Assembly (NCBI GenBank): GCA_964516435.1
Contig: CAZEZP010000102.1
Span: 246 to 64,245 of the forward strand
Source: an uncultured Kofleriaceae bacterium
Lineage (GTDB): Bacteria > Myxococcota_A > Polyangia > HGW-17
Length of the DNA: 64,000 bases
Direction of reading: 5' to 3'
Part shown: positions 14,217 through 50,926 of the stretch, piece after piece
How the letters are laid out: every line of letters starts with the position of its first letter
Numbering within the stretch: the stretch's first letter is position 1
Made by a program: the position numbers and the translations under genes
The notes under the pieces: generated by a model
What the model was told of the DNA's origin: nothing
The model's input: the letters and a program-made list of their open reading frames with translations, nothing else
The model's database searches: none

Positions 14217-15359
14217 TCAGCGGTTTTCCACCGTGATGGCCACGGGAGCCGCGCCGGTATTGGTGAGTACGGAGAAGGAGGCGGCATCCTGCTGCAGCGC
14301 GCCGCGGAAAAACGCCGTCAGATGGCCGGAGACAAGCTGCAAAAACAGTTCTGGCGTGGGGCCGCCAGCGCACACGGTGCACACCATGCCGCAGGAAGCA
14401 TCGGGATCGAGCATGTCGTTGTGGCCGTAGTCGGTGGCCACCACGTGCCAGGCGGGCGCAGCGGAAGCTTCATAGAACTGTACGTGGTTGTCGCCCTCGG
14501 GGGCGCAGGGCTGGTTGAATCCCGAACTCTGCGGCCCCAGGCCGGTGCCCAGCACATAGGAGGGGAACGGGAAATTGAACGGCCCGGTCACCACGCGCTC
14601 CTCCCCGCCCAGAGGCCCGCCGGTGCCATCCACCGGATCCACGCCGGCCACGGCCAGCGCCAGCGCCGGATTGGCCTTGAGTACCATCCAGGCCACCTTG
14701 CCGCCGCGGGAATGGCCGGAATACCCCACCCGCTGCGTGTAGGGGACCACCGTGCCCAGCAGGCCGGGCAACTGTGAATCCACCCAGGCGCGCACCTCCG
14801 CCGCGGCCGCGGCTTCCTCGGCGGTGCTGGGCTTGCCCAGCGGCAGGCCGTCGGCCGCATACATCTGCGGAGCCACCACGACGAAGCCGTGGGAAGCCAC
14901 GTGGGAGAGCATCGTGGAATACCAGGCCGAACTCATGAGAAAGCCATGCTGGAAAATGACCACGGCATACGTGCCGGCCTCCTGCGGATGCCAGATGCGG
15001 ATCAACCTGGGAGCGCCCGAATCGCCCTGCGCTACCTCGCGGAACTGCACGGCCAGCGGTCCGGCAGCGAACGGATCGGAGGTGTCGACGTACACGGGAC
15101 TCGTAGTGTTGTTGGTGTTGTTCGTATTGTTGCTATTGTTTATATTATTCGCATTATTGGTATTGTTTGTATTGTTTACATTGTTTGTATTGTTTGCGTT
15201 ATTTAGATTGTTTGTATTATTGATATTATTTGTGTTGTTTGCGTTATTATTATTTGTATTATTCACATTGTTCTGATTGTTCGACTTGGATGTTCCCGAA
15301 TCGCAGGAAACCGAAAAGAGAACCGCCAGCAACAGAAGAAACCGTGGAAAAAATTTCAT
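14217..15359 (-). CDS. chlorophyllase-like alpha/beta hydrolase lipoprotein with Asn-rich linker
   Basis: Lipobox SVSC, VIFQHG, SHVASHGFVVVAPQ, nucleophile GHSRGGK, AGVDPVDG, YGHNDMLD. Confidence 0.82.
   Translation of the reverse strand: MKFFPRFLLLLAVLFSVSCDSGTSKSNNQNNVNNTNNNNANNTNNINNTNNLNNANNTNNVNNTNNTNNANNINNSNNTNNTNNTTSPVYVDTSDPFAAGPLAVQFREVAQGDSGAPRLIRIWHPQEAGTYAVVIFQHGFLMSSAWYSTMLSHVASHGFVVVAPQMYAADGLPLGKPSTAEEAAAAAEVRAWVDSQLPGLLGTVVPYTQRVGYSGHSRGGKVAWMVLKANPALALAVAGVDPVDGTGGPLGGEERVVTGPFNFPFPSYVLGTGLGPQSSGFNQPCAPEGDNHVQFYEASAAPAWHVVATDYGHNDMLDPDASCGMVCTVCAGGPTPELFLQLVSGHLTAFFRGALQQDAASFSVLTNTGAAPVAITVENR
15105..15281 (-). repeat. (Asn-Asn-X) tripeptide array of 19 units, low GC
   Basis: NNQNNVNNTNNNNANNTNNINNT...NNSNNTNNTNNT read from the translation. 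Confidence 0.9.
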
Positions 15360-19526: not shown

Positions 19527-20790
19527 GCTTCACCTCCCCCGCCGGATGCGGGAAGCAGATCGATTTGAAGGCGATCTTCATAGAATTTTTCCAGCAGATC
19601 CGGCTGGATGGTCAGGTGGATCATCTCCGCGGGCACCACGAAGCGCAACTTGCGCTCGAGCAGGTCGCCCACGCGCAGCACGCACGGAGACAGGCGCGTC
19701 TTGGCCCGCATGTAGATGGTGTGCGCTCGGTCCGGCGAGAGCGTGTGCGGCACGCAGTAGCGCACGTTGGCGCCCGGCACCAACTGGATGGTGTCCTTCG
19801 GGCGGCGCAGGCTGCGCGCATGCTCGCCGGCGAAGCGCCCCGCCCGCAGTGCCTCCTCGGTGACGTAATCCACCAGGTCGTGCACGTGCAGCACGTTGCC
19901 GCAGGCGAATACGCCCGGCAGGCTGGTGGAGAGCGTGGAATCCACGCGGGGGCCGCCCGTGACCACATCCAGCGCCAGTCCCAGGCTCTCGGAGAGTTCG
20001 TTTTCCGGAATGAGCCCGATGGACAAGAGCAGCGTGTCGCAGGGCACGTCCCAGGCGCGGGCCATGTCGGGGCGAGCCGCCTCGTCCACGGGCGCCACGG
20101 TCACGGCTTCCACACGGTCGCGCCCATGGATGCGCACGACCGTGGTGGACAGGTGCAGCGGAATGCCGAAATCGTTCAGACACTGCACCACGTTGCGCGT
20201 GAGCCCGTTGGAATAGGGCATCAGTTCGAACACGCCGGCCACCTCCACGCCTTCGAGCGTGAGCCGGCGCGCCATGATGAGCCCGATGTCGCCGGATCCC
20301 AGGATCACGGCCCGCCGCCCCGGCAGGTAGCCGTGGAGATTGACCAGTTTCTGGGCCAGCCCCGCGGTGAAAATCCCCGCCGGCCGCGTTCCCGGAATGC
20401 GCACGGCACCCCGGGTGCGCTCGCGGCAGCCCATGGCCAGCACCACCGCCCGGCATTCCACGGTCGAAAGCCCGCCGCGGGCGGAAAGCACGTGGACCTG
20501 CCGGTTGCCGAAGGAATCCACGGCCAGCCCGGTGACGTAGGCGTTGGGTGCGACGTCGACGTCGTGCTCGAGCACGCGCATGACGAAACGTTCGGCATAC
20601 TCGGGGCCGGTGAGTTCCTCCCGGAAGTAGTGCAGCCCGAAACCGGCGTGGATGCACTGGCGCAAAATCCCGCCGGGCTCGGGCTCGCGCTCCACCACCA
20701 GCACGCGCGAGACCCCGCTCTCGAGCGCCCCCAGCGCGGCCGCCAGCCCGGCCGGCCCGCCGCCCACCACCACCACGTCGTAGCGCCGGT

Positions 20791-20794
<4 letters not shown>
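19523..20794 (-). CDS. pyridine nucleotide-disulfide (FAD/NAD) oxidoreductase
   Basis: [68 protein letters not shown] overlaps the upstream TGA. Confidence 0.88.
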
Positions 20795-22293
<1,499 letters not shown>

Positions 22294-27588: not shown

Positions 27589-30672
<3,084 letters not shown>

Positions 30673-33177: not shown

Positions 33178-33945
33178 GTGATCGATACGCATTGCCATCT
33201 GTTCGACGATCCCCTGCGCGAGTCTTGGACGCAGGTGCTGGCAGAAGCCGCGCAGGCGGGCTGCACCGGCGTGGTGGTCGTGGCCACCTGGGCCACGGCA
33301 TGGGAAGAGATCGCCGGCCACCGCACGGACGTGCGCGAAATCCTGCCCGATTCCCGCGTGGCCGTGGGACTTCATCCCTGGTACGTACACCAGGTGCCCG
33401 CGGACTGGCAGGAAAGGCTGGAAACCTTGCTGCCCCGGGTGGACGCCGTGGGCGAAATCGGCCTGGACCGCGGCGAGCGGGCCCCGGCGATGGAACTGCA
33501 GGAGCCCGTCTTCGCCCGGCAACTGGAAATGGCCGCCGCGCATGGACTGCCCGTGCTGCTGCACGTGGTGCGCGCCCACGATCTCGTGCTGCACCATCTC
33601 AAGGCGTTCGGCGGAAAACTGCGCGGCATCGTGCACGCCTTCTCCGGTTCGCCCGAAGACGCGCGCGCCTACGTGGAGCGAGGCTTCCTGCTGGGCATCG
33701 GCGGCGGCATCACCCGCGAGAACGCCCACCGCCTGCGCCGCATCGCCGCCAAACTGCCGCATGAAGCCATCGTGCTGGAAACCGACAGTCCATACCTGGG
33801 CACCGAAACCGTTCCGGCAGGCGCCTCGCGCCCCGTGCACGCGGCGCAGGTGGCCGCCCGGCTCGCGCAGGAACTCGGACTCTCCATGGAAGAAACCATC
33901 CGCATCACGTCGGAAAATGCCCGCCGGCTGTGGGAGCGTCCATGA
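33178..33945 (+). CDS. tatD: TatD family deoxyribonuclease
   Basis: IDTHCHL, VGLHPW, VGEIGLD, LLHVVRA, VHAFSG, LETDSPY. Confidence 0.9.
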   Translation: MIDTHCHLFDDPLRESWTQVLAEAAQAGCTGVVVVATWATAWEEIAGHRTDVREILPDSRVAVGLHPWYVHQVPADWQERLETLLPRVDAVGEIGLDRGERAPAMELQEPVFARQLEMAAAHGLPVLLHVVRAHDLVLHHLKAFGGKLRGIVHAFSGSPEDARAYVERGFLLGIGGGITRENAHRLRRIAAKLPHEAIVLETDSPYLGTETVPAGASRPVHAAQVAARLAQELGLSMEETIRITSENARRLWERP

Positions 33946-36029
33946 TCCGCAATAGCCCCGTCCTGCAGGCGACGCTCGTGTTTTTCGCCGTCGTGGCAGC
34001 CTATGTGCCGCGACTGGGTTCCTACGGACTCTTCGATCCGTGGGAGACGCACTACGCCGAAGTCGCGCGCACCATGCTCCAGCGCGACGACCCGGTGTCG
34101 ACCTACTGGCAGGATGACGGGTTCTATTCCAAGCCGCCGCTCCTCTTCTGGATGCAGGCCGCCGGATTCCGCGCGGCCGGACTCAACGGCCCAGACGGCC
34201 CCGACAACGAGTTCACGACGGACGAGCGCCCGGAATGGGCCGCCCGATTGCCCGTGGTCCTGCTGGCCGCCCTGGCCGCGGCGGGGGTCTTCCTCTTCCT
34301 GCGCCGTCGGGCGGGGCCCTATCCGGCCCTGTTCGCATCCATGGCACTGGCATTCGCGCCGCATTTCGCCCTGGTAGCCCGCCAGAGCATCACCGACATG
34401 CCTTTCCTGGCGCTCATGACGCTGGGCATGCTGGCCTTCTTCGAGGGTTTCCTGCTGGAAGATGACGCCGAACCCGCATCCTTCTTCCGCCGGAGTTCCC
34501 CGCGCCGCCCGTCCGGCTTCGAATGGGCCTCCGCCGCAGCGATCGCACTGCCGGTGCTCGTGCAGTACGCCGTCTTCGCCCCCCGCGTGCAGGCGTCGTT
34601 CGCCTGGAACGGCCGCCCGGTCACGCTTTCCGGCTGGCTCGTGTTCTCGCCGTACGCGCTGCTGCTGGCGGACGTGCTCTGGGGCATCCTGCGCGGGCAC
34701 TTCTCCCCGGCCCGCCTGTGGATCCTCCTGGGCGCGGCCCTGTGCGCCCTGGCCGTGCTGGCCAAGGGCTTCGGCGCGCTGTTCATCCCGGCGGCCGTGT
34801 TCCTGCTGTACTTCCTGCTCACGGGCGAATGGGAGCGCCTGCGCCGCTTTCCGCTGTTTCCGGCGCTGTGGGTGGTGGTGGCCATCTCGTTCCCCTGGCA
34901 CCACGCCATGATCGTCCGCCACGGGGATGCGTTCTTCCAGGAATACATCGTGCACCATCATTTCAAGCGGGCCGCCGAGGGCGTGCACGGTGAGCGGGGG
35001 ACGTTCGCCTACTACCTCAACCAGATGCTCTTCGGCCTCCTGCCCCTCTGGCCGGCGCTGGCGGCGTCGCTTCCCGCAGGACTGCGGCGGCTGCGCGAAT
35101 GGAAGCCCTCCGGCGAAAACCGCCTGCTGCTGCTGGCCTTTCTCTGGATGGCGGTCTCGTTCTTCCTGTTCTCCTTCATGCTCACGAAGTTCCACCACTA
35201 CATCCTGCCGGTGGCGGTGCCGGCGGCCATCTGGACGGCGCTGGCACTCTTCGGCGGGAACCGGGAAGAAACGCCCGGCCAGGGATGGCGCCCCCGCTTT
35301 TCGCCGGCGCTCTTCACGGGATTCGCCCTGCTCGCGCTCACCGTGCGGGAAACCGTGCTGGATCCGGCCCATTTCATCAACCTCTTCATCTACAAATATG
35401 AACGCCTGTTTCCGTACGAAGACTGGATGCCCTGGGCCATGGGCGCTTTCGGGGGGCTGGTCCTGGCAGCGGCCGCCGTGCTGGTCTTCTGGCGCAACCG
35501 GAGCACCTGGACCGCTTTCCTGCTGGCGGGAGCGCTCTACAGCCTGCACCTGCTCGTGCTGTACATGCCCGCCGTGGGGCCCCACTGGAGCCAGAAGCAA
35601 CTGCATGCCATCTATTTCCAGTGCCGGCGCAACCCCGGCCAGCGCCTGATCGCCTGGCAACTGAACTGGCGCGGCGAGAACTTCTACTCGAAGAACAAGG
35701 TGGTCCCCCTGATGGAGACAGACAACAAGGAATTCCTGGAATACCTGCGCCGCTACCGGGCAAAAACCCGCGAGGAAGTCTCGGCCCGTTTCATCGTGCT
35801 GGAGGCCTCCCGCTACCAGCGCCTGGTGAACGTGCTCAACCAGGAACTGTACACGCGCTATCCGGAAATCTACGATTACCGCCGCGGAGAGGAACTCGTC
35901 ACCATCCTGGGCCCGGGATGCCGCGAAATCCCGCCGGTGTTCGTGGCGCACCCCGTTCAAACGCATTACAAGGTTCTTTCGACCCCTTATGTGCACAATA
36001 AATTTCTGATGGTCCGCTTGACACTGTGA
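33942..36029 (+). CDS. ArnT/PMT-like (GT39/GT83, GT-C fold) membrane glycosyltransferase
   Basis: DPWETHYAEVARTML, YSKPPLLFW, AVLAKG, PWH..F..EYIVHHHFKR, TKFHHYILP, many TM helices. Confidence 0.85.
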   Translation: MIRNSPVLQATLVFFAVVAAYVPRLGSYGLFDPWETHYAEVARTMLQRDDPVSTYWQDDGFYSKPPLLFWMQAAGFRAAGLNGPDGPDNEFTTDERPEWAARLPVVLLAALAAAGVFLFLRRRAGPYPALFASMALAFAPHFALVARQSITDMPFLALMTLGMLAFFEGFLLEDDAEPASFFRRSSPRRPSGFEWASAAAIALPVLVQYAVFAPRVQASFAWNGRPVTLSGWLVFSPYALLLADVLWGILRGHFSPARLWILLGAALCALAVLAKGFGALFIPAAVFLLYFLLTGEWERLRRFPLFPALWVVVAISFPWHHAMIVRHGDAFFQEYIVHHHFKRAAEGVHGERGTFAYYLNQMLFGLLPLWPALAASLPAGLRRLREWKPSGENRLLLLAFLWMAVSFFLFSFMLTKFHHYILPVAVPAAIWTALALFGGNREETPGQGWRPRFSPALFTGFALLALTVRETVLDPAHFINLFIYKYERLFPYEDWMPWAMGAFGGLVLAAAAVLVFWRNRSTWTAFLLAGALYSLHLLVLYMPAVGPHWSQKQLHAIYFQCRRNPGQRLIAWQLNWRGENFYSKNKVVPLMETDNKEFLEYLRRYRAKTREEVSARFIVLEASRYQRLVNVLNQELYTRYPEIYDYRRGEELVTILGPGCREIPPVFVAHPVQTHYKVLSTPYVHNKFLMVRLTL

Positions 36030-36132
36030 TTTAAATATATTGCAATCATATTGCATTAATTGCAGCATACAAAAAAATGTCCGGATTTTTGGGGTTGAAG
36101 AACGGGAGATTTCCGACTATCAAGGAAAGGCC

Positions 36133-36936
36133 ATGAAGCGGACGCTTTTTATTCTCGGCTCACTCCTCTCGCTTCTCCTGGGATTTTCGGGGGCCCCGGC
36201 GACGGCCCGGGCGGCGGATCCTCCGCCGGATGCCCGCTGCCTCAAGGAACTGCGCGCCGCCGGCGTGAATTTCAAGGTGGGTCCCGCCGCCACGGGCATC
36301 CGCACGCCGGTCACCATCCTGGATGGAAAAGTGGGTGCCATCCAGTTCATGCACGGCAACCTGGTGGCCAAGCCCCATCTGGACTGCCGGCTGGCTTTGG
36401 CCCTCTATCGCGTGCATCCGATCTTCTCCGCCAACGGCGGCATCACCAAGGTCATCGCCGGACTCTTCTACAGTTACCGGATGGTGAAGAACTCCAACCG
36501 GCTCTCCCAGCACGCATCCGGGCTCGCCATCGACATCTACGGCCTGCGGCTGGAAGACGGCACCTACATCTCGGTGGACTCGGACTACGAAAAGGGGCTG
36601 GGCGCGGGCTCCGCCTGCGAGGGAACGGCCAAGACCCGCGCCGGGCGCATCCTGCGGCAACTGGCCTGCGATCTCGACCGCAGCCATTTCTTTTCCGCCA
36701 TCCTCACGCCGGATTCGGACCGGGAACACGAGGATCATTTCCATCTGTCCGCCTGGGGCACGGATGAAAAACGCACGCGGAAGAACCGGACCGCCCTGGT
36801 GGAGCCGCAGAACTTCGCCACGGCCTGGGTGCGCCAACTCCCGCTTTCCGCAAGCCCGTCCATCCAGCGCGTCTGGAGCGTGGTGCAGCAGCGGCGCAAG
36901 GCCAACGTGAAACTGATGCGCCACAAGAGGCGCTAG
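36133..36936 (+). CDS. extensin-like C-terminal domain protein
   Basis: Signal peptide, LDCRLALAL, LSQHASGLAIDI, HEDHFHL. Confidence 0.75.
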   Translation: MKRTLFILGSLLSLLLGFSGAPATARAADPPPDARCLKELRAAGVNFKVGPAATGIRTPVTILDGKVGAIQFMHGNLVAKPHLDCRLALALYRVHPIFSANGGITKVIAGLFYSYRMVKNSNRLSQHASGLAIDIYGLRLEDGTYISVDSDYEKGLGAGSACEGTAKTRAGRILRQLACDLDRSHFFSAILTPDSDREHEDHFHLSAWGTDEKRTRKNRTALVEPQNFATAWVRQLPLSASPSIQRVWSVVQQRRKANVKLMRHKRR

Positions 36937-41626: not shown

Positions 41627-44179
41627 ATGCATCTCACGAAATTTTTGTTTTTGTCTCTCCTGACGGCTTCATTCCTTTTCTCGGCCTGTGACGACGGCGG
41701 CAATAAGAAGGAGAACAATACGAACAACCAGCAGAATACCTGCGATGACCTCGACTGCGGCGCACACGGCGTCTGCCGCGAGGGAGGCACGGGACCGTAC
41801 TGTGAATGCGAAACGGGCTACCAGGGCACGCACTGTGATACTTGCGCAGCCGGCTATGAACCCCAAGGCGATATGTGTATCCTTCCGGAAGACCCGTTCT
41901 TTGGCACACCGGTTGTCGATGGCACGATCACCGTGGGCGCGGGCGACTGGAGCGAGGGCCAGCGGGTGGGTACCTGCGAAACCCCCTCCGACTGGGGCGC
42001 CAACGTCCTGCATGCCCTCTACGTGGCCTATGACCAGACCAACCTCTACATCGGCGTAACTGGCTCGGTGGAAGCCCAAAACGCCCTGGCCGTGTACATC
42101 GACACGGATTACGGGCCTTCCAGCCGCGGGCTCTCGGCTCTCGGGTCGGCCACCGACAACGATGGCGCGCTGGACAACGCCCTCTCCTCCGTCATCACCA
42201 TCGCGCATACCGCCTTCCGCGCGGACTGGGCCGTGGGCACCAAGGGAATGGCCTCGGCGGGAAGCGCACTCTCGGACAACGCGGGCTGGCGCGATGTCGC
42301 CACGGATCCGGCCGACTTCCACTGGAAATCCGGCGTGCTGGTGTCGGGAAGCGCCGGGTTCGAAGCGGCCATCCCGCTGACCGACCTCTTCGGCGGCCTG
42401 CCGCCGGATGGAACGCAAGTGGCCGTGTTCGCCCGACTGGTCAACGAGGACGGACAATATCTGTCCAATCAGACAGTACCGATGGACAGACCGGAGAGGC
42501 CCGACACCGTCAACGAGGTGGCCGTGATCACACTGCGTTCCGGTCAGACCAACCCCTGCGACCAGGACGGTTTCTGCGAAGCCGGCGAGAATTTCAGCAA
42601 CTGTCCCGATGATTGCCCCATGACGGGCGAATGCGGCGACCCCAACGAGTTCCTGTGGGAAGACGCCGTGATGTACTTCGTGCTGGTGGACCGCTTCTTC
42701 GACAGCGACGGCCAGCGCCAGGAAGTGCCGGGGGTAGACTGGGCCGCCCAGTTCCAGGGCGGCGACTGGAACGGCGTGACCGCCAAGTTGTCCTACCTGG
42801 CGGATCTGGGCGTCAACACCCTGTGGCTGTCGGCTCCCTACAAGAACCGCGATCTGCCGGGAGCGGCCATCGACCCGGGCAGCGATTCCCATCTGTACTC
42901 GGCCTATCATGGCTACTGGCCCTCCCCCGCCAACATCGACTATTCCGACCCCAACAATCCGCAGCCCACCCCCACCGTGGAAAGCCGCCTGGGAACGGCC
43001 GCCGACCTGCACACGCTGGTGGATTCGGCGCATGCCGAGAACATGTTCGTGCTCTTCGACTACGTCATGAACCACGTCGATGACCAATCGGGCCTGTATG
43101 CGGCCCACCAGGACTGGTTCTACCGGGAGAACGGCAATCCCGTGCTGTGCTCTCCCAACTACTGGAACGACCCGTACTATGGCACCCGCTGCGCGTTCAC
43201 GCCGTACCTGCCGGCCTTCGACTACTATCAGTCCTGGGTGCGCCAGTGGTCCGTGGCCGATGCCCTGTGGTGGGCCCAGGCGTACGGCATCGACGGCTAC
43301 CGCCTCGACGCCATCAAGCACGTCCCGATGGAATGGCTCACGGAACTGCGCACAGCGCTCAATGCACGCTTTTCCAGCCCTGCGGGCGGACGCTTCTACC
43401 TCGTGGGCGAAACCTATGATTACGACAACCGGCAGGTGCTCAAGAATTTCGTAGACCCCGCGACCAAACTGGACGGCCAGTTCGATTTCCCGCTGCGCAA
43501 GCGCATCTGCGACGCCATCTTCAAGCGCAGCATGAGTCTGGACGACCTGTTCAACTTCTGGAACGAAAACGACAACTTCTACGGCCCCGGCTCGCTCATG
43601 TCCACCTGGATCGGCAATCACGACATCCCGCGGGCCATCCACTTCGCCTCCGGACAGATCGACGACTGCTACCAGGGCTCCTGGGTGGGCAATTCCTGGA
43701 ATCCCGGCGCCTTCCAGCAGCCCGGCGACGCCGCCCCCTACGAGCGGCTGGCGCTGGCGTTCGGCCTGCTTCTGACCAACCGCGGTGTGCCCCTCATCTA
43801 CTACGGCGACGAAATCGGCATGGCCGGCGGCGGCGACCCGGACAACCGGCGCATGATGATGTGGGACGGCCTGAATGCGCATCAGACCCAGTTGCGCGAA
43901 ACGGTGCGCCGCCTGCTGCAGATCCGGCGCGAGAACATCGCCCTGCGCCGCGGCCGGCGCGTCACCGTCACGGGCGGCTGGGACACGTTCGCCTACAAGC
44001 TCACGGGCTGCGGCGAATCCGAAGACGTGTACGTGCTCGCCAACCGCTCGGACAATGCGGCTTCCGTCTCCGGACTCCCCGCCGGCACCTGGCGCGAGCT
44101 GCTCACCGGCGGCACGCAGACGGGCGGCTCCCCGGTGGAGATTCCCGCCCGTAGCCTGCGGATCTTCAAGGCCAACTGA
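41627..44179 (+). CDS. GH13 alpha-amylase family lipoprotein with EGF-like and DOMON/CBM9-like domains
   Basis: Lipobox FSAC, EGF CGAHGVC..CEC.TGYQG..C, GGDWNG, YHGYW, DYVMNH, catalytic RLDAIKH / VGE / NHD. Confidence 0.9.
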   Translation: MHLTKFLFLSLLTASFLFSACDDGGNKKENNTNNQQNTCDDLDCGAHGVCREGGTGPYCECETGYQGTHCDTCAAGYEPQGDMCILPEDPFFGTPVVDGTITVGAGDWSEGQRVGTCETPSDWGANVLHALYVAYDQTNLYIGVTGSVEAQNALAVYIDTDYGPSSRGLSALGSATDNDGALDNALSSVITIAHTAFRADWAVGTKGMASAGSALSDNAGWRDVATDPADFHWKSGVLVSGSAGFEAAIPLTDLFGGLPPDGTQVAVFARLVNEDGQYLSNQTVPMDRPERPDTVNEVAVITLRSGQTNPCDQDGFCEAGENFSNCPDDCPMTGECGDPNEFLWEDAVMYFVLVDRFFDSDGQRQEVPGVDWAAQFQGGDWNGVTAKLSYLADLGVNTLWLSAPYKNRDLPGAAIDPGSDSHLYSAYHGYWPSPANIDYSDPNNPQPTPTVESRLGTAADLHTLVDSAHAENMFVLFDYVMNHVDDQSGLYAAHQDWFYRENGNPVLCSPNYWNDPYYGTRCAFTPYLPAFDYYQSWVRQWSVADALWWAQAYGIDGYRLDAIKHVPMEWLTELRTALNARFSSPAGGRFYLVGETYDYDNRQVLKNFVDPATKLDGQFDFPLRKRICDAIFKRSMSLDDLFNFWNENDNFYGPGSLMSTWIGNHDIPRAIHFASGQIDDCYQGSWVGNSWNPGAFQQPGDAAPYERLALAFGLLLTNRGVPLIYYGDEIGMAGGGDPDNRRMMMWDGLNAHQTQLRETVRRLLQIRRENIALRRGRRVTVTGGWDTFAYKLTGCGESEDVYVLANRSDNAASVSGLPAGTWRELLTGGTQTGGSPVEIPARSLRIFKAN

Positions 44180-48439: not shown

Positions 48440-50926
48440 TCAGCGAACCTGGAACGTATCGTCCAGCGCGAGGTTGCGGGCCAGCACGCGCACGAACTGG
48501 CCGATGTACGAGGAGCCGCCGCTGGAATCGGCCATGTCGAGAATGTAGAGATAGCCGTCGGGCCCGGCCCCGACCCACGACGGAAACCGCACGGCCACAT
48601 CCTTGCCGAAACGGCCGAATCCCGCCAGGACGTTGAACTGGGCCCGGTACTGCACCGGGATTTCCGCAGTTTCATCCATCGTCATGCGCAGGGTGAAAAA
48701 TGGTGTGACTTGCTCGCCACCCTGGCGGGGCAGCCGGTAATCGAACGTGCCCGGAATATCCGCGCAGGCGCGCTGCGGCCCCACGGCTTCCCGGTATGGC
48801 CGGTACGGCGTTCCCGACCCGGTCAGCACGAAACTGCCATGGGAGCGCACTTCATAAATCTGCGGTCCCGAAAGGCACCAGAAAGAATTCATCTCGGGCC
48901 AGAGCGCGCCGACGCACGTGCCCAGAGTCTCTCCCTCGGCCCTGCGGCACACGGCGCCCTGCTTCCAGCCGAAGACCCGGCAATCCAGATCCGACGTACA
49001 GGTCGACGGCGCGTGCGTTTCCCGGTCGGCATATTCCAGCGGAGCCAGCAGCAGGGCATCGGCCCACACGTCCGTCACGAGGAATTCCCGATCCGATGCC
49101 AGAAAACGCGAGCAGGCATTGGTGAAATCCTGGGCATGCTCCTTCGGGAAGCACAGTCCCGGCAGATCCTGGCGCTGCATGGGCGTGCGGCGGCACACCT
49201 GATCATCCAGGCAATCCTCCGAGGAATCGCAGCCCACGATGCGTAGCACGTCTCCTGCGCGCACCCCAGCGGCGCAGTAGTTGGCGCCCATGTCATAGAA
49301 GAACAAATCGGGAGCCGAGGAGGCATCCCGATCCGCCACGCCCCAGCGCCGGGCGGACCCCGGCAGCACGCCATCCCACACGAGGCTCCAGGTTTCAGAA
49401 CGCATGAAGTAGCCGTCCATGTCGTGCAGGTGCAGCCCATCGTCGAAGGGAACGATTTGCGGAAGGCCGCCGGAGGGGAGCGTGGGGGAATCCTCGATGT
49501 AGTAGGAAACCGGCGTTTCCATGCGCGGACGGCCGCCGGAAGAGGAGTTCTCCCCGATGTCCACGGCATTGCGGAACCGGTGCGCCAGCACTTCCTCCGG
49601 CCATGTCTGGACCTCGCCTGCGCCCAGCCGGTAATCGAACACGTCCTGCGTGAAGGCTTCATCCAGATTGAGAACGTAGAGCACGCCGTCCCAGGACACC
49701 GCCGCGCCGAAGATCCCCAGCAGCGTGGTCTTTTCCCGGGGATCCTCGTTTTCCGTGTTCTCCGGGCGCTCGAAGAAGGCCACATCCTGGAGCGGCCGGT
49801 TCTCCGAGAGTTGGATGCCGGGCGAAAGCGCCAGAAAATGCCGCGGCGCCGTACCCACGGGCAGGCATCCCCGCTCCGGCGAATCGATGCCGAGAGCCGG
49901 CAACTGGCGCGTATCGGCCTGCGTTTCGCACTCCACGCGATCGGACAGCCGCACCACCCGGATGTCGCCGGCGTTCGTCACGGCATACAGGAAACGGCCC
50001 CAGCGGGTCTGCGGCGTGATGCGCAACCTGCCAAACCCGCGGGTTTCCCCGTCCAGCCGCACGGGTTCCGCCGCCAGCGGTTCTCCCGAATCCGCGTCCA
50101 GGTCCAGCGCCAGCAGGACATCGGGCGCATCGGGAGAATTCGCGTTGAGCCCCACGAACAGCGTGGTGGATTCTACCACCAGGGGCATGGGACTCCAGCG
50201 GACTGGCGAGGCATCGGCTGTGCCGTTCTCCTCCGGACAATCGGCCATGGAAAGAGGTTCCAGATACGGAGATTCGCCGGAAAGCCGGTAGGCCGACACC
50301 ACCTGCCCGGAGGCATCCACGCGCGCCAGCGCCTGGCAGCCCGGAAACGTCAGCCATGCATCCGGAAAAACGCCCTTCGTTTCGATGGCGAAGGGAACGG
50401 AAGAGAGAGGTACGCCCTGTTCCGTCAAAGGCATTGTCGCGGGCGCTTCCGCCGGCGTCTCCCCCCGAGCCATGGCCAGAAGGGCCGACACGGGCACCCG
50501 CACCAGCCGCGACGGACGAAAGGCCGCCACGCTCACGACGCCTGCAGCGTCATCATAGGCCATGTCCTGCAACTGCATGCCCACGGGAAAGAAGTTGTAG
50601 CCTGGAGAGAGGGAATCCAGATCCACCAGTTTCTTTTCCTTGAGATCCACGAGCGCCAGTTCGCCGCGGGCCGAGAGCGCAATGACCGCGAAATTCCGCG
50701 TATTGGAGGGATTTTCGCTGCACGATTGCCGGGTTTCCCTCTGCCAGTGTCCCGCATCGTCCTTGCGGGCGCAGAAGAAAATGGCGGAAACGGGGCGCTC
50801 CAACTGGCGTTCGGGAAGTTCCTCGGAACTGTCGTCACAGGCCGAAACCAGCCCGAGAGCCCAAAACGCCACGAGGACGCCGCCCCAATACGACCAGCCC
50901 CGCACGGGGAAAAATGACATGCGCAT
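48440..50926 (-). CDS. uncharacterised large lipoprotein
   Basis: Lipobox VSAC, beta-rich and Cys-containing, 828 aa with coding-type GC3. Confidence 0.7.
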   Translation of the reverse strand: MRMSFFPVRGWSYWGGVLVAFWALGLVSACDDSSEELPERQLERPVSAIFFCARKDDAGHWQRETRQSCSENPSNTRNFAVIALSARGELALVDLKEKKLVDLDSLSPGYNFFPVGMQLQDMAYDDAAGVVSVAAFRPSRLVRVPVSALLAMARGETPAEAPATMPLTEQGVPLSSVPFAIETKGVFPDAWLTFPGCQALARVDASGQVVSAYRLSGESPYLEPLSMADCPEENGTADASPVRWSPMPLVVESTTLFVGLNANSPDAPDVLLALDLDADSGEPLAAEPVRLDGETRGFGRLRITPQTRWGRFLYAVTNAGDIRVVRLSDRVECETQADTRQLPALGIDSPERGCLPVGTAPRHFLALSPGIQLSENRPLQDVAFFERPENTENEDPREKTTLLGIFGAAVSWDGVLYVLNLDEAFTQDVFDYRLGAGEVQTWPEEVLAHRFRNAVDIGENSSSGGRPRMETPVSYYIEDSPTLPSGGLPQIVPFDDGLHLHDMDGYFMRSETWSLVWDGVLPGSARRWGVADRDASSAPDLFFYDMGANYCAAGVRAGDVLRIVGCDSSEDCLDDQVCRRTPMQRQDLPGLCFPKEHAQDFTNACSRFLASDREFLVTDVWADALLLAPLEYADRETHAPSTCTSDLDCRVFGWKQGAVCRRAEGETLGTCVGALWPEMNSFWCLSGPQIYEVRSHGSFVLTGSGTPYRPYREAVGPQRACADIPGTFDYRLPRQGGEQVTPFFTLRMTMDETAEIPVQYRAQFNVLAGFGRFGKDVAVRFPSWVGAGPDGYLYILDMADSSGGSSYIGQFVRVLARNLALDDTFQVR

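What the first reader, a model, noticed from the sequence alone, without database searches (positions are those of the whole stretch)
15105..15281. (Asn-Asn-X)n post-lipobox linkers: a shared array of N-glycosylation sequons in three unrelated lipoproteins
Seen: 19 NNx units containing 9 NNT and 1 NNS right after the lipobox of the hydrolase. Shorter versions sit at the same position in the giant Cys-rich lipoprotein (NNQANNLNNTNNANNSN, about 27679-27729) and the amylase (ENNTNNQQN, about 41711-41737). They persist despite strong genomic GC pressure. Established: N-X-S/T is the N-glycosylation sequon, and some deltaproteobacterial PglB enzymes do not need the -2 acidic residue. Inference: a lineage-specific glyco-linker or surface-export tag. 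A GT-C-fold glycosyltransferase is encoded at 33942-36029, but no link is shown.
Basis: partly seen in the sequence, partly recalled or inferred. Interest (0 to 1): 0.62.

Follow-up and report, generated by a model that had tools for sequence, protein, structure and literature searches.

The report
Asparagine-rich tethers on Myxococcota lipoproteins
In this uncultured Myxococcota bacterium at least 69 membrane-anchored lipoproteins, not three, carry a floppy asparagine-rich (Asn-Asn-X)n spacer just after the lipid-anchor cysteine, and it looks like a lineage-specific form of the known disordered lipoprotein tether rather than an N-glycosylation array.

Summary
The whole genome holds 73 (NNx)n tracts in 69 genes. 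Every tract lies behind a lipobox cysteine, and most start 6-12 residues after it, following a stereotyped C-D-D-G-(S/K)-K-K leader.

The trait is lineage-restricted. It occurs in 13 of 14 genomes of the window's family. In a 300-genome sample of the phylum it occurs in only one other family.

The N-glycosylation reading is not supported:
- STT3/PglB is absent from all 14 family genomes, and a GT41-type N-glycosyltransferase is absent from this genome.
- Thr is enriched at X here (51%), but Ser is not.
- The closest orthologues of the hydrolase carry NNI/NNV/NNL linkers with only 1-2 sequons.
- Congeneric genomes differ in whether NNT or NNI dominates.
- The nearby GT-C gene is conserved across the class, including 26 genomes that have no tracts.

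AlphaFold models the tract as disordered. More distant orthologues carry acidic low-complexity linkers, or cysteine-rich stalks, at the same position.

My best reading is an uncharged, disordered tether that grows by in-place duplication. It sits on enzymes and adhesins that act outside the cell, and it may form part of a sorting module. Thr O-glycosylation remains possible but has no evidence behind it. The strongly A/T-shifted synonymous sites inside the tracts are unexplained.

The parts
15303..15359 (-). Lipoprotein signal peptide of the hydrolase, MKFFPRFLLLLAVLFSVSC, ending in the lipobox Cys19
   Evidence: Translation; lipobox regex.
15282..15302 (-). Short leader DSGTSKS between the lipidated Cys and the tract. 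It is a variant of the genome-wide C-DDG-(S/K)-KK leader.
   Evidence: position-specific composition of the 62 tract lipoproteins.
15105..15281 (-). (NNx)19 Asn-rich tract, residues 27-85, 25% GC. It contains 9 NNT, 1 NNS, 3 NNA, 2 NNI, 2 NNV, 1 NNL and 1 NNQ units.
   Evidence: TRF finds period 9 and period 45 repeats. AlphaFold pLDDT is below 50 with no secondary structure.
14217..15104 (-). Chlorophyllase-family alpha/beta-hydrolase domain, including the stop codon
   Evidence: Pfam PF07224, E = 1.4e-62; pLDDT about 97.
27589..27645 (+). Lipoprotein signal peptide of the 1027-aa MopE-repeat protein, MLKIVRISMVFALLFLAAC
27679..27729 (+). Short Asn tract NNQANNLNNTNNANNSN, starting 11 residues after the Cys
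   Evidence: TRF period 9.
41627..41710 (+). Signal peptide MHLTKFLFLSLLTASFLFSAC plus the canonical leader DDGGNKK of the alpha-amylase lipoprotein
41711..41737 (+). Minimal Asn tract ENNTNNQQN
33930..36029 (+). GT-C-type (PMT_2/ArnT-like) membrane glycosyltransferase. I examined it as the proposed partner and found no link, so I do not count it as part of the feature.

Best explanation
The (Asn-Asn-X)n tract is an intrinsically disordered, uncharged, low-complexity tether. It separates the lipid-anchored N-terminal cysteine from the folded cargo domain in a large subset of this bacterium's lipoproteins (at least 69, about one in seven).

It belongs to a modular N-terminus with four parts: signal peptide with lipobox, a short leader of consensus D-D-G-(S/K)-K-K, the (NNx)n tract of 9-60 residues, and the cargo. 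The tract arises and changes length by in-place duplication of 9-nt units. Constraint acts on overall composition: Asn pairs, with X drawn from T/I/A/V/S, and almost no charged, Pro or aromatic residues. Individual residues are not constrained.

Inferred function, by analogy with the disordered N-terminal linkers of E. coli outer-membrane lipoproteins:
- It gives the cargo reach and freedom from the membrane.
- It provides the unstructured segment that lipoprotein sorting machinery handles.
- Because the carriers are hydrolases, phosphatases, proteases and adhesin-like repeat proteins, leader plus tract may mark lipoproteins that act at or beyond the cell surface.

Shown here: position, prevalence, composition, predicted disorder, lineage restriction, interchangeability with other linker types, and absence of N-oligosaccharyltransferases. 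Inferred: the spacer and sorting function and the cellular location.
For: - Prevalence and position: 73 tracts in 69 genes, all behind a lipobox Cys, with a modal start 6-9 residues after it.
- Disorder: AlphaFold with a 67-sequence alignment gives pLDDT below 50 and no secondary structure for residues 21-85, against about 97 for the catalytic domain.
- Interchangeability, hydrolase: among 98 lipobox-bearing homologues the same slot holds N-rich (8), acidic D/E-rich (57) or other (32) low-complexity linkers, 7-267 residues long with a median of 60.
- Interchangeability, second protein: homologues of L063 carry a Cys-rich repeat stalk in place of the tract.
- Weak residue-level constraint: a protein 99% identical (P0001) differs from the window protein only inside the linker, at 4 positions. 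Orthologues at 76-79% identity have 10-17 units with X mostly I/V/L.
- In-place growth: NNx units within one gene share identical DNA more often than units from different genes (19-22% vs 11%). Leaders of unrelated genes share no long DNA stretch. Paralogues on C25 and C75 differ by 3 units.
- Cargo class: GH114, GHL10, GH44, GH57, esterase, chlorophyllase, trypsin, metallophosphatases, and MopE/DUF4215/TSP3/EGF/VWA repeat proteins. BamD and three OmpA/Pal-like lipoproteins have neither the tract nor the CDD leader.
- Leader association: Asp at +2 in 47% of tract lipoproteins vs 13% of the others, Fisher p = 3e-9.
- Precedent: about half of E. coli outer-membrane lipoproteins have a disordered N-terminal linker longer than 22 residues. 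It is needed for correct Lol-dependent sorting and can be replaced by an artificial unstructured sequence (bioRxiv 10.1101/2021.01.05.425367).
Against:
- A generic spacer does not explain why Asn in particular is used, nor why Thr reaches 51% of X in this genome.
- It also does not explain the unusual synonymous sites in the tracts: GC3 of 0.53 against 0.80 in the next 50 codons, and ATA/ACA/GTA codons enriched 6- to 25-fold.
- Low AlphaFold confidence is only indirect evidence of disorder.
- My lipoprotein and gene sets come from a home-made ORF caller and a lipobox regex, and contain some false positives.
- The housekeeping comparison rests on only four proteins.
Confidence: 0.62

Rival explanations
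1. N-glycosylation array: each N-N-T/S unit is a sequon that an oligosaccharyltransferase modifies in the periplasm, or that an NGT-type enzyme modifies in the cytoplasm. This would give a glycan-coated stalk.
For: NNT is formally N-X-T. In this genome 327 of the 1140 tract Asn residues sit in a sequon, and Thr makes up 51% of X.
Against: - STT3/PglB (PF02516) is absent from this 97.5%-complete genome and from all 14 genomes of the tract-bearing family. The same search does detect weak hits elsewhere in the class and in archaeal controls.
- GT41 (PF13844) is absent from this genome.
- Ser is not enriched (1.2-fold; T:S = 7:1).
- Orthologous linkers in sister species have only 1-2 sequons in 40-54 residues.
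- In congeners G002 and G005, NNI runs outnumber NNT runs.
- No acidic residue sits at the -2 position, which Campylobacter-type PglB needs (my own knowledge).
Confidence: 0.04
2. O-glycosylated stalk: the Thr (and Ser) residues of NNT units are O-glycosylated by a PMT/ArnT-like GT-C enzyme or a PglL/Wzy_C-type O-oligosaccharyltransferase. This would stiffen the tether and protect it from proteases, as in the Thr-rich N-terminal linkers of mycobacterial lipoglycoproteins.
For: - Thr is 10-fold enriched at X, and TT doublets are the commonest two-residue spacer.
- The genome encodes a PMT_2/PMT-like GT-C enzyme and two Wzy_C proteins above the Pfam cut-off.
- There is precedent: PMT-dependent O-mannosylation of lipoproteins in Mycobacterium (PMC5341126 and PMC5673659, listed; I read titles and abstracts only).
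Against: - The GT-C enzyme is conserved in 39 of 41 genomes of the class, including 26 with no tracts. Its neighbours are TatD, an extensin-like protein, CesT and an S41 peptidase, with no sugar-donor genes.
- Its best curated match is ArnT, a lipid A modifier.
- Wzy_C proteins are ubiquitous O-antigen ligases or polymerases.
- Thr is replaced by Ile/Val/Leu in orthologues and in whole congeneric genomes, so hydroxyl groups are not required for the tract's conserved role.
- Ser is not enriched.
- T, I, A and V are joined by single transitions (ACN, ATN, GCN, GTN), so the X spectrum also fits drift from an NNT founder unit.
Confidence: 0.14
3. Dedicated sorting code: the C-DDG-x-KK leader together with the Asn tract is a lipoprotein export signal that a lineage-specific machinery reads to flip or release these lipoproteins at the cell surface. 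This would be analogous to the Bacteroidota LES.
For: - The leader is stereotyped: +2 D 47%, +3 D 50%, +4 G 40%, +6/+7 K 32-37%. It is strongly associated with the tracts.
- The cargo acts on external polymers or looks adhesive.
- BamD and Pal-like lipoproteins lack both elements.
- Acidic residues within +2 to +4 occur in 57 of 98 hydrolase homologues across lineages.
- The Bacteroidota LES is likewise a short acidic motif with a polar or basic residue at +2 to +6: K-(D/E)2, SDDDD, SDDFE (PMC5080379).
- The same architecture recurs independently in a second family, f28.
Against: - No localisation data exist.
- Many lipoproteins have the CDDG-KK leader without a tract (for example window 48440-50926, and several). 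Some tract proteins lack the leader, including the MopE protein with C-KGEAGVYKPDA. Leader and tract are therefore separable, and the tract itself need not carry address information.
- In Enterobacteria, Asp at +2 means inner-membrane retention (my own knowledge), so the opposite location cannot be excluded.
Confidence: 0.2

Closest known systems
Intrinsically disordered N-terminal linkers (tethers) of Gram-negative outer-membrane lipoproteins such as RcsF, Pal and NlpD (El Rayes et al., bioRxiv 10.1101/2021.01.05.425367)
   Same: The position is the same: directly after the lipidated Cys and a short sorting motif, ahead of the globular domain. The length range is similar (over 22 residues in E. 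coli, 9-60 here). Both are predicted to be disordered and tolerate sequence change. In E. coli an artificial unstructured sequence can replace the linker.
   Different: The composition here is extreme and periodic, with about 60% Asn in NN-x triplets. The tract is encoded by diverged 9-nt repeats whose synonymous sites are AT-shifted. It is shared by at least 69 proteins and confined to two Myxococcota families. Whether Lol needs it has not been tested.
Bacteroidota lipoprotein export signal (LES; Lauber et al. 2016, PMC5080379)
   Same: Both are short, position-dependent motifs rich in Asp/Glu with a Lys or polar residue at +2 to +6 after the Cys. Both occur on surface-acting glycoside hydrolases and binding proteins, and both are absent from periplasm-facing lipoproteins.
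   Different: The residue order differs: D-D-G-x-K-K here, against x-K-D-D-E or S-D-D-D-D. The phylum differs. No surface-exposure data exist for this organism. The LES has no Asn-repeat extension.
O-mannosylated Thr-rich N-terminal linkers of actinobacterial lipoglycoproteins, such as M. tuberculosis LpqH/19-kDa antigen, modified by PMT (PMC5341126, PMC5673659)
   Same: Both are Thr-containing low-complexity stretches right after the lipobox, in a genome that encodes a PMT-like GT-C enzyme.
   Different: Asn dominates here rather than Thr/Pro/Ala. Thr is dispensable in orthologues. The GT-C enzyme is closer to ArnT than to PMT and does not co-vary with the tracts. No glycan evidence exists.
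Poly-Asp/Asn post-lipobox tethers noted earlier in this scan in Lernaellota-type genomes (findings e1-358392 and e1-1383804)
   Same: Both are genome-wide, lineage-specific, low-complexity strings placed directly after the lipobox Cys and interpreted as flexible tethers or possible address tags.
   Different: Those tethers are polyanionic and Asp-dominated. These are uncharged and Asn-dominated with a strict NN-x period. The phyla differ.

Membership tests
Bacterial lipoprotein (Lgt/Lsp substrate) | N-terminal signal peptide with a basic n-region, a hydrophobic h-region and a lipobox [LVI][ASTVI][GAS]C | tested here: met
   MKFFPRFLLLLAVLFSVSC, MLKIVRISMVFALLFLAAC and MHLTKFLFLSLLTASFLFSAC. 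All 73 tracts lie behind such a motif. The test was by regex only, with no SignalP run and no experiment.
Intrinsically disordered N-terminal lipoprotein linker | A segment between the lipidated Cys and the globular domain that lacks stable structure | tested here: met
   AlphaFold gives pLDDT below 50 and no DSSP secondary structure for residues 21-85, and about 97 for the domain. This is a prediction, not a measurement.
Intrinsically disordered N-terminal lipoprotein linker | Sequence is replaceable and length is variable among orthologues | tested here: met
   Homologues carry N-rich, acidic, other low-complexity or Cys-repeat linkers of 7-267 residues at the same position.
Intrinsically disordered N-terminal lipoprotein linker | Required for correct Lol-dependent sorting | not testable with these tools
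   This needs genetics and cell fractionation.
PglB/STT3-dependent N-glycoprotein | An STT3-family oligosaccharyltransferase encoded in the genome | tested here: not met
   PF02516 gives 0 hits in this genome and 0 hits in the 14 family genomes. Archaeal controls were positive.
PglB/STT3-dependent N-glycoprotein | The N-X-S/T sequon is conserved, with both Ser and Thr favoured | tested here: not met
   T:S = 188:26, with Ser enriched only 1.2-fold. Orthologues have 1-2 sequons. NNI runs outnumber NNT runs in G002 and G005.
HMW1C/NGT-type cytoplasmic N-glycosylation | A GT41-family N-glycosyltransferase is present | tested here: not met
   PF13844 gives 0 hits in this genome. Caveat: no control genome with a known HMW1C-type enzyme was in the control set.
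PMT-dependent O-mannosylated lipoglycoprotein | A GT39 protein O-mannosyltransferase is present | tested here: inconclusive
   The ORF at 33930-36029 matches PMT_2 (31.9 bits) and PMT (26.3 bits), just over their cut-offs. Its best curated match is ArnT at 83 bits, against a cut-off of 567.
PMT-dependent O-mannosylated lipoglycoprotein | Enzyme and substrate motif co-occur phyletically, or pathway genes lie nearby | tested here: not met
   The GT-C enzyme is present in 39 of 41 relatives, 26 of which have no tracts. Its neighbours are unrelated to glycosylation.
PMT-dependent O-mannosylated lipoglycoprotein | Glycan attached to Thr or Ser of the linker | not testable with these tools
   This needs mass spectrometry.
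Bacteroidota-type lipoprotein export signal (LES) | A conserved acidic motif at +2 to +6, specific to one class of lipoproteins | tested here: inconclusive
   A D-D-G-(S/K)-K-K logo appears in tract lipoproteins, with Asp at +2 in 47% vs 13% of the others. It is absent from BamD and three OmpA-like lipoproteins. The order of charges differs from K-(D/E)2.
Bacteroidota-type lipoprotein export signal (LES) | The motif is sufficient for surface exposure | not testable with these tools
   This needs reporter fusions and surface labelling.

The most novel reading that the evidence does not exclude
Two Myxococcota families have independently evolved a two-part N-terminal address for lipoproteins. 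The first part is a short acidic-then-basic leader (C-DDG-x-KK). The second is an uncharged (Asn-Asn-Thr/Ile)n stalk. Together they would send degradative enzymes and adhesins to the cell surface or into vesicles by an undescribed export route. The Thr-rich versions might be O-glycosylated. The A-rich, rare-codon encoding of the stalk might act as a translational pause that helps targeting.
Probability: 0.15. Interest if true: 0.72.

Novelty: new variant of a known kind. Interest (0 to 1): 0.42.

Why it matters
Lipoprotein sorting rules outside Proteobacteria and Bacteroidota are poorly known, and Myxococcota deploy very large lipoprotein repertoires (about 500 lipobox ORFs here).

A stereotyped leader plus an easily recognised Asn stalk on about 70 exo-acting proteins gives a simple sequence marker. 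It could be used to predict which lipoproteins of these uncultured bacteria act at the surface, and it supplies a natural series of tether lengths and compositions for testing how linker chemistry affects sorting.

It also serves as a caution. A dense array of N-X-T motifs in a bacterial protein is not evidence of N-glycosylation when no oligosaccharyltransferase is encoded and orthologues drop the Thr.

Tried and rejected
- PglB-type N-glycosylation: rejected. No STT3 in this genome or in 14 family genomes.
- NGT-type N-glycosylation: no GT41 enzyme found.
- A link to the GT-C gene at 33930-36029: rejected on phyletic distribution and gene neighbourhood.
- A mobile or recombining 'signal peptide plus linker' DNA cassette shared between genes: rejected. 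Unrelated genes share only 15-24 nt matches over the lipobox/CDDG codons.
- Hypervariable perfect microsatellite (a contingency locus): not supported. Adjacent units with the same amino acids share identical DNA in only 22% of cases, no more than random pairs of units within the same gene. TRF reports 69-78% matches for the window tract.
- Replicating the orthologue comparison with a second protein (L063): only 4 homologues were returned, because low-complexity words saturated the candidate list. Those four were still informative.
- Literature: full-text searches combining 'asparagine-rich' with lipoprotein, linker, lipobox, signal peptide and low complexity found no paper describing such linkers.
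Full report
**Observation**

The minus-strand ORF at 14217-15359 encodes a 380-aa protein. It starts with MKFFPRFLLLLAVLFSVSC, followed by DSGTSKS and then 19 NN+x units. I count 9 NNT, 1 NNS, 3 NNA, 2 NNI, 2 NNV, 1 NNL and 1 NNQ. These occupy residues 27-85, which map to 15105-15281.

The tract is 25% GC in a 64% GC window. The protein is a chlorophyllase-family alpha/beta hydrolase (PF07224, E = 1.4e-62).

- 27679-27729, in a 1027-aa MopE-repeat lipoprotein.
- 41711-41737, in an alpha-amylase lipoprotein.

**Scale of the feature**

The window belongs to a 3.88-Mb, 63% GC, 97.5%-complete assembly. I called genes with an iterated codon-usage model, which gave 2613 genes. A lipobox regex marked 499 of them.

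Tracts defined as (N≥2, then 1-2 other residues) repeated at least 3 times occur 73 times in 69 genes. Sixty-five tracts lie in regex-positive lipoproteins. The remaining eight also sit behind a visible lipobox, or at a contig edge. A six-frame scan that did not depend on gene calls gave the same picture and added a few paralogues.

Most tracts start 6-12 residues after the Cys and run for 9-60 residues. A minority are inter-domain linkers deeper inside lipoproteins. None lies in a cytoplasmic protein. So this is not three proteins. It is about one lipoprotein in seven.

**Composition**

At single X positions flanked by NN (n = 367), the residues are:

| Residue | Share of X |
|---|---|
| T | 51% |
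| I | 12.5% |
| A | 10% |
| S | 7% |
| V | 7% |
| K, D, P and the aromatic residues | ≤0.5% each |
| R | none |

Thr is 10-fold enriched over the proteome and Ile 2.9-fold. Ser is only 1.2-fold enriched. T, I, A and V are joined by single transitions (ACN, ATN, GCN, GTN). The spectrum therefore fits an NNT-type founder unit that drifts under a filter excluding charge, proline and bulky residues. It would equally fit a preference for beta-branched or small residues.

**The leader**

Tract lipoproteins share a stereotyped leader: +2 D (47%), +3 D (50%), +4 G (40%), +5 S/K, +6 K/S, +7 K. Asp at +2 occurs in 47% of them against 13% of the other lipobox ORFs (Fisher p = 3e-9).

The leader also occurs without a tract, for example at window 48440-50926 (C-DDSSEE). 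The MopE protein has a tract without the leader. The two elements are therefore separable.

**Lineage distribution**

The DNA pattern for (NNT)3 is present in 13 of 14 genomes of the window's family, across four genera. It appears once, weakly, in another family of the same order. It is absent from 26 further genomes of the order and class.

In a 300-genome sample of the phylum it occurs only in one other family, f28, in 8 genomes. There too the tracts lie directly after a lipobox and a short acidic/basic leader, for example C-GGDDPKEK-NNTNNTNNTNNT and C-GDDAEKT-NNGTNNVTNNNT.... Control patterns gave zero hits everywhere.

Named relatives are uncultured Myxococcota or 'Deltaproteobacteria' MAGs, such as HGW-Deltaproteobacteria-22.

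**Test of the glycosylation reading**

- *N-glycosyltransferases.* STT3/PglB is absent from this genome and from all 14 family genomes. The same search finds weak hits elsewhere in the class and clear hits in archaeal controls. GT41 is absent.
- *The GT-C gene.* The ORF at 33930-36029 is a weak PMT_2/PMT match, and its best curated match is ArnT. Homologues occur in 39 of 41 relatives, including all 26 genomes without tracts. Its neighbours are TatD, an extensin-like protein, a CesT-like protein, DUF1232 and an S41 peptidase, with no sugar-donor genes.
- *Other candidates.* Two Wzy_C proteins exist, but this family is ubiquitous.
- *Sequon conservation.* This is the most telling point, because the sequon is not conserved. 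Hydrolase orthologues at 76-79% identity carry NNx linkers in which X is I, V or L, with 1-2 sequons in 40-54 residues.
- *Runs in other genomes.* Counts of pure (NNT)3 against (NNI)3 runs are 85:2 in this genome. In congeners they are 31:13, 7:5, 1:5 and 2:8, and in other genera 51:3 and 51:0.
- *A near-identical protein.* A protein 99% identical from another sample differs from the window protein only within the linker: N to D, T to L, V to A and A to T.

What is conserved, then, is the Asn pair and a small or aliphatic X, not a hydroxyl group. N-glycosylation by any known route is effectively excluded. Thr O-glycosylation is not excluded for this species, but it cannot be the conserved role of the tract.

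**What it most likely is**

AlphaFold, run with a 67-sequence alignment, models residues 21-85 with pLDDT below 50 and no secondary structure. The catalytic domain scores about 97.

Among 98 lipobox-bearing homologues of the hydrolase, the slot between the Cys and the conserved YVG.GDPY start of the domain is always filled by a variable linker of 7-267 residues (median 60). The linker is acidic in 57, N-rich in 8 and of other composition in 32. Homologues of a second tract protein (L063) have a Cys-rich repeat stalk in the same place.

This is how a spacer behaves. It matches the disordered N-terminal linkers described for about half of E. coli outer-membrane lipoproteins. Those linkers are needed for proper Lol-dependent sorting and can be replaced by artificial unstructured sequence of adequate length (bioRxiv 10.1101/2021.01.05.425367).

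The tract-bearing proteins include:
- glycoside hydrolases (GH114, GHL10, GH44, GH57);
- esterases, a trypsin-like protease and phosphatases;
- Cys-rich or adhesin-like repeat proteins.

BamD and three OmpA/Pal-like lipoproteins have neither tract nor CDD leader. Together with the acidic leader, this recalls the Bacteroidota lipoprotein export signal (K-(D/E)2, SDDDD; PMC5080379). It keeps open a role in sorting to the surface, but nothing here shows where these proteins are located. In Enterobacteria, Asp at +2 means inner-membrane retention (my own knowledge).

**How the tracts evolve**

NNx units within one gene share identical DNA more often than units from different genes (19-22% vs 11%). 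Recent paralogues on C25 and C75 differ by three units. Orthologues range from 10 to 19 units. All of this points to in-place duplication and deletion.

Leaders of unrelated genes share only 15-24 nt, so no cassette is being shuffled between genes. Most units have diverged at synonymous sites, so the tracts are not fresh microsatellites.

**Unexplained**

Synonymous sites inside the tracts are far from the genome's usual codon usage.

| Measure | In tracts | Comparison |
|---|---|---|
| GC3 | 0.53 | 0.80 in the next 50 codons; 0.81 genome-wide |
| AAT share of Asn codons | 51% | 31% |
| ATA share of Ile codons | 74% | 3% |
| ACA share of Thr codons | 34% | 6% |
| GTA share of Val codons | 52% | 5% |

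T-ending X codons are almost absent. Amino-acid choice cannot explain this. Possible causes are relaxed codon selection in a linker, slippage that favours A-rich units, or selection for unstructured or slowly read mRNA 35-60 codons after the signal peptide. I tested none of these.

**Prior knowledge**

Full-text searches found no paper describing Asn-rich lipoprotein linkers.

Earlier notes from this scan describe poly-Asp/Asn post-lipobox tethers in another phylum. They also record the same AT-rich Asn/Thr linkers in another window of this genome and in one further genome. I treat these as leads that agree with my reading, not as independent evidence.

**Verdict**

The feature is real, striking and genome-wide. 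It is a new compositional variant of the known disordered lipoprotein tether, coupled to a candidate sorting leader. The N-glycosylation sequon interpretation is not supported. Interest is moderate.

Noticed in passing
genome-wide; in the window at 41690-41710 (DDGGNKK) and in the lipoprotein at 48440-50926(-), which starts C-DDSSEE: A stereotyped post-Cys leader C-D-D-G-(S/G/K)-K-K is common among this genome's lipoproteins, both with and without Asn tracts. It is absent from BamD and the OmpA/Pal-like lipoproteins. It is a candidate sorting signal, and the order of its charges differs from the Bacteroidota LES.
   Followed up: partly
window 15105-15281 and all 73 tracts in the genome: Synonymous positions in the tracts are strongly A/T-shifted. 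GC3 is 0.53 against 0.80 immediately downstream. ATA, ACA and GTA, all rare in this genome, are the main Ile, Thr and Val codons within the tracts.
   Followed up: partly
whole genome: About 499 of 2613 predicted genes (19%) match a lipoprotein signal-peptide pattern. This is an unusually large share even allowing for false positives. Many are Cys-rich repeat proteins (MopE, DUF4215, TSP3, EGF).
   Followed up: no
window 14217-15104(-) and homologues P0001-P0120: Chlorophyllase-family (PF07224) lipoproteins are widespread in uncultured Myxococcota, Bradymonadia and Phycisphaerae MAGs: 621 homologues at E ≤ 1e-10. Their substrate in non-photosynthetic, possibly predatory bacteria is unknown.
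   Followed up: no
G000:C25:~145200-145320 and G000:C75:~20750-20830: Two nearly identical paralogous lipoproteins (…AMKTLLALA[FC]LLAFVTAC-NVGSSSKT-) carry NNT runs of 15 and 12 units. The repeats are near-perfect AATAACACC units and look like the most recent tract expansion in the genome.
   Followed up: no
window 36022-36936(+), overlapping the end of the GT-C gene: An extensin-like_C (PF06904) protein starts 8 nt before the GT-C stop codon and is followed by a CesT-like chaperone gene. The GT-C enzyme and the extensin-like protein may be co-translated partners with an unknown envelope function.
   Followed up: no
L087 (G260:C184:3800-4700): In a genome of family f28, a lipoprotein has an NNT tract interrupted by a masked or N-filled stretch and followed by a (TTP)n run. 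Pro/Thr and Asn/Thr linkers appear to coexist in one protein.
   Followed up: no
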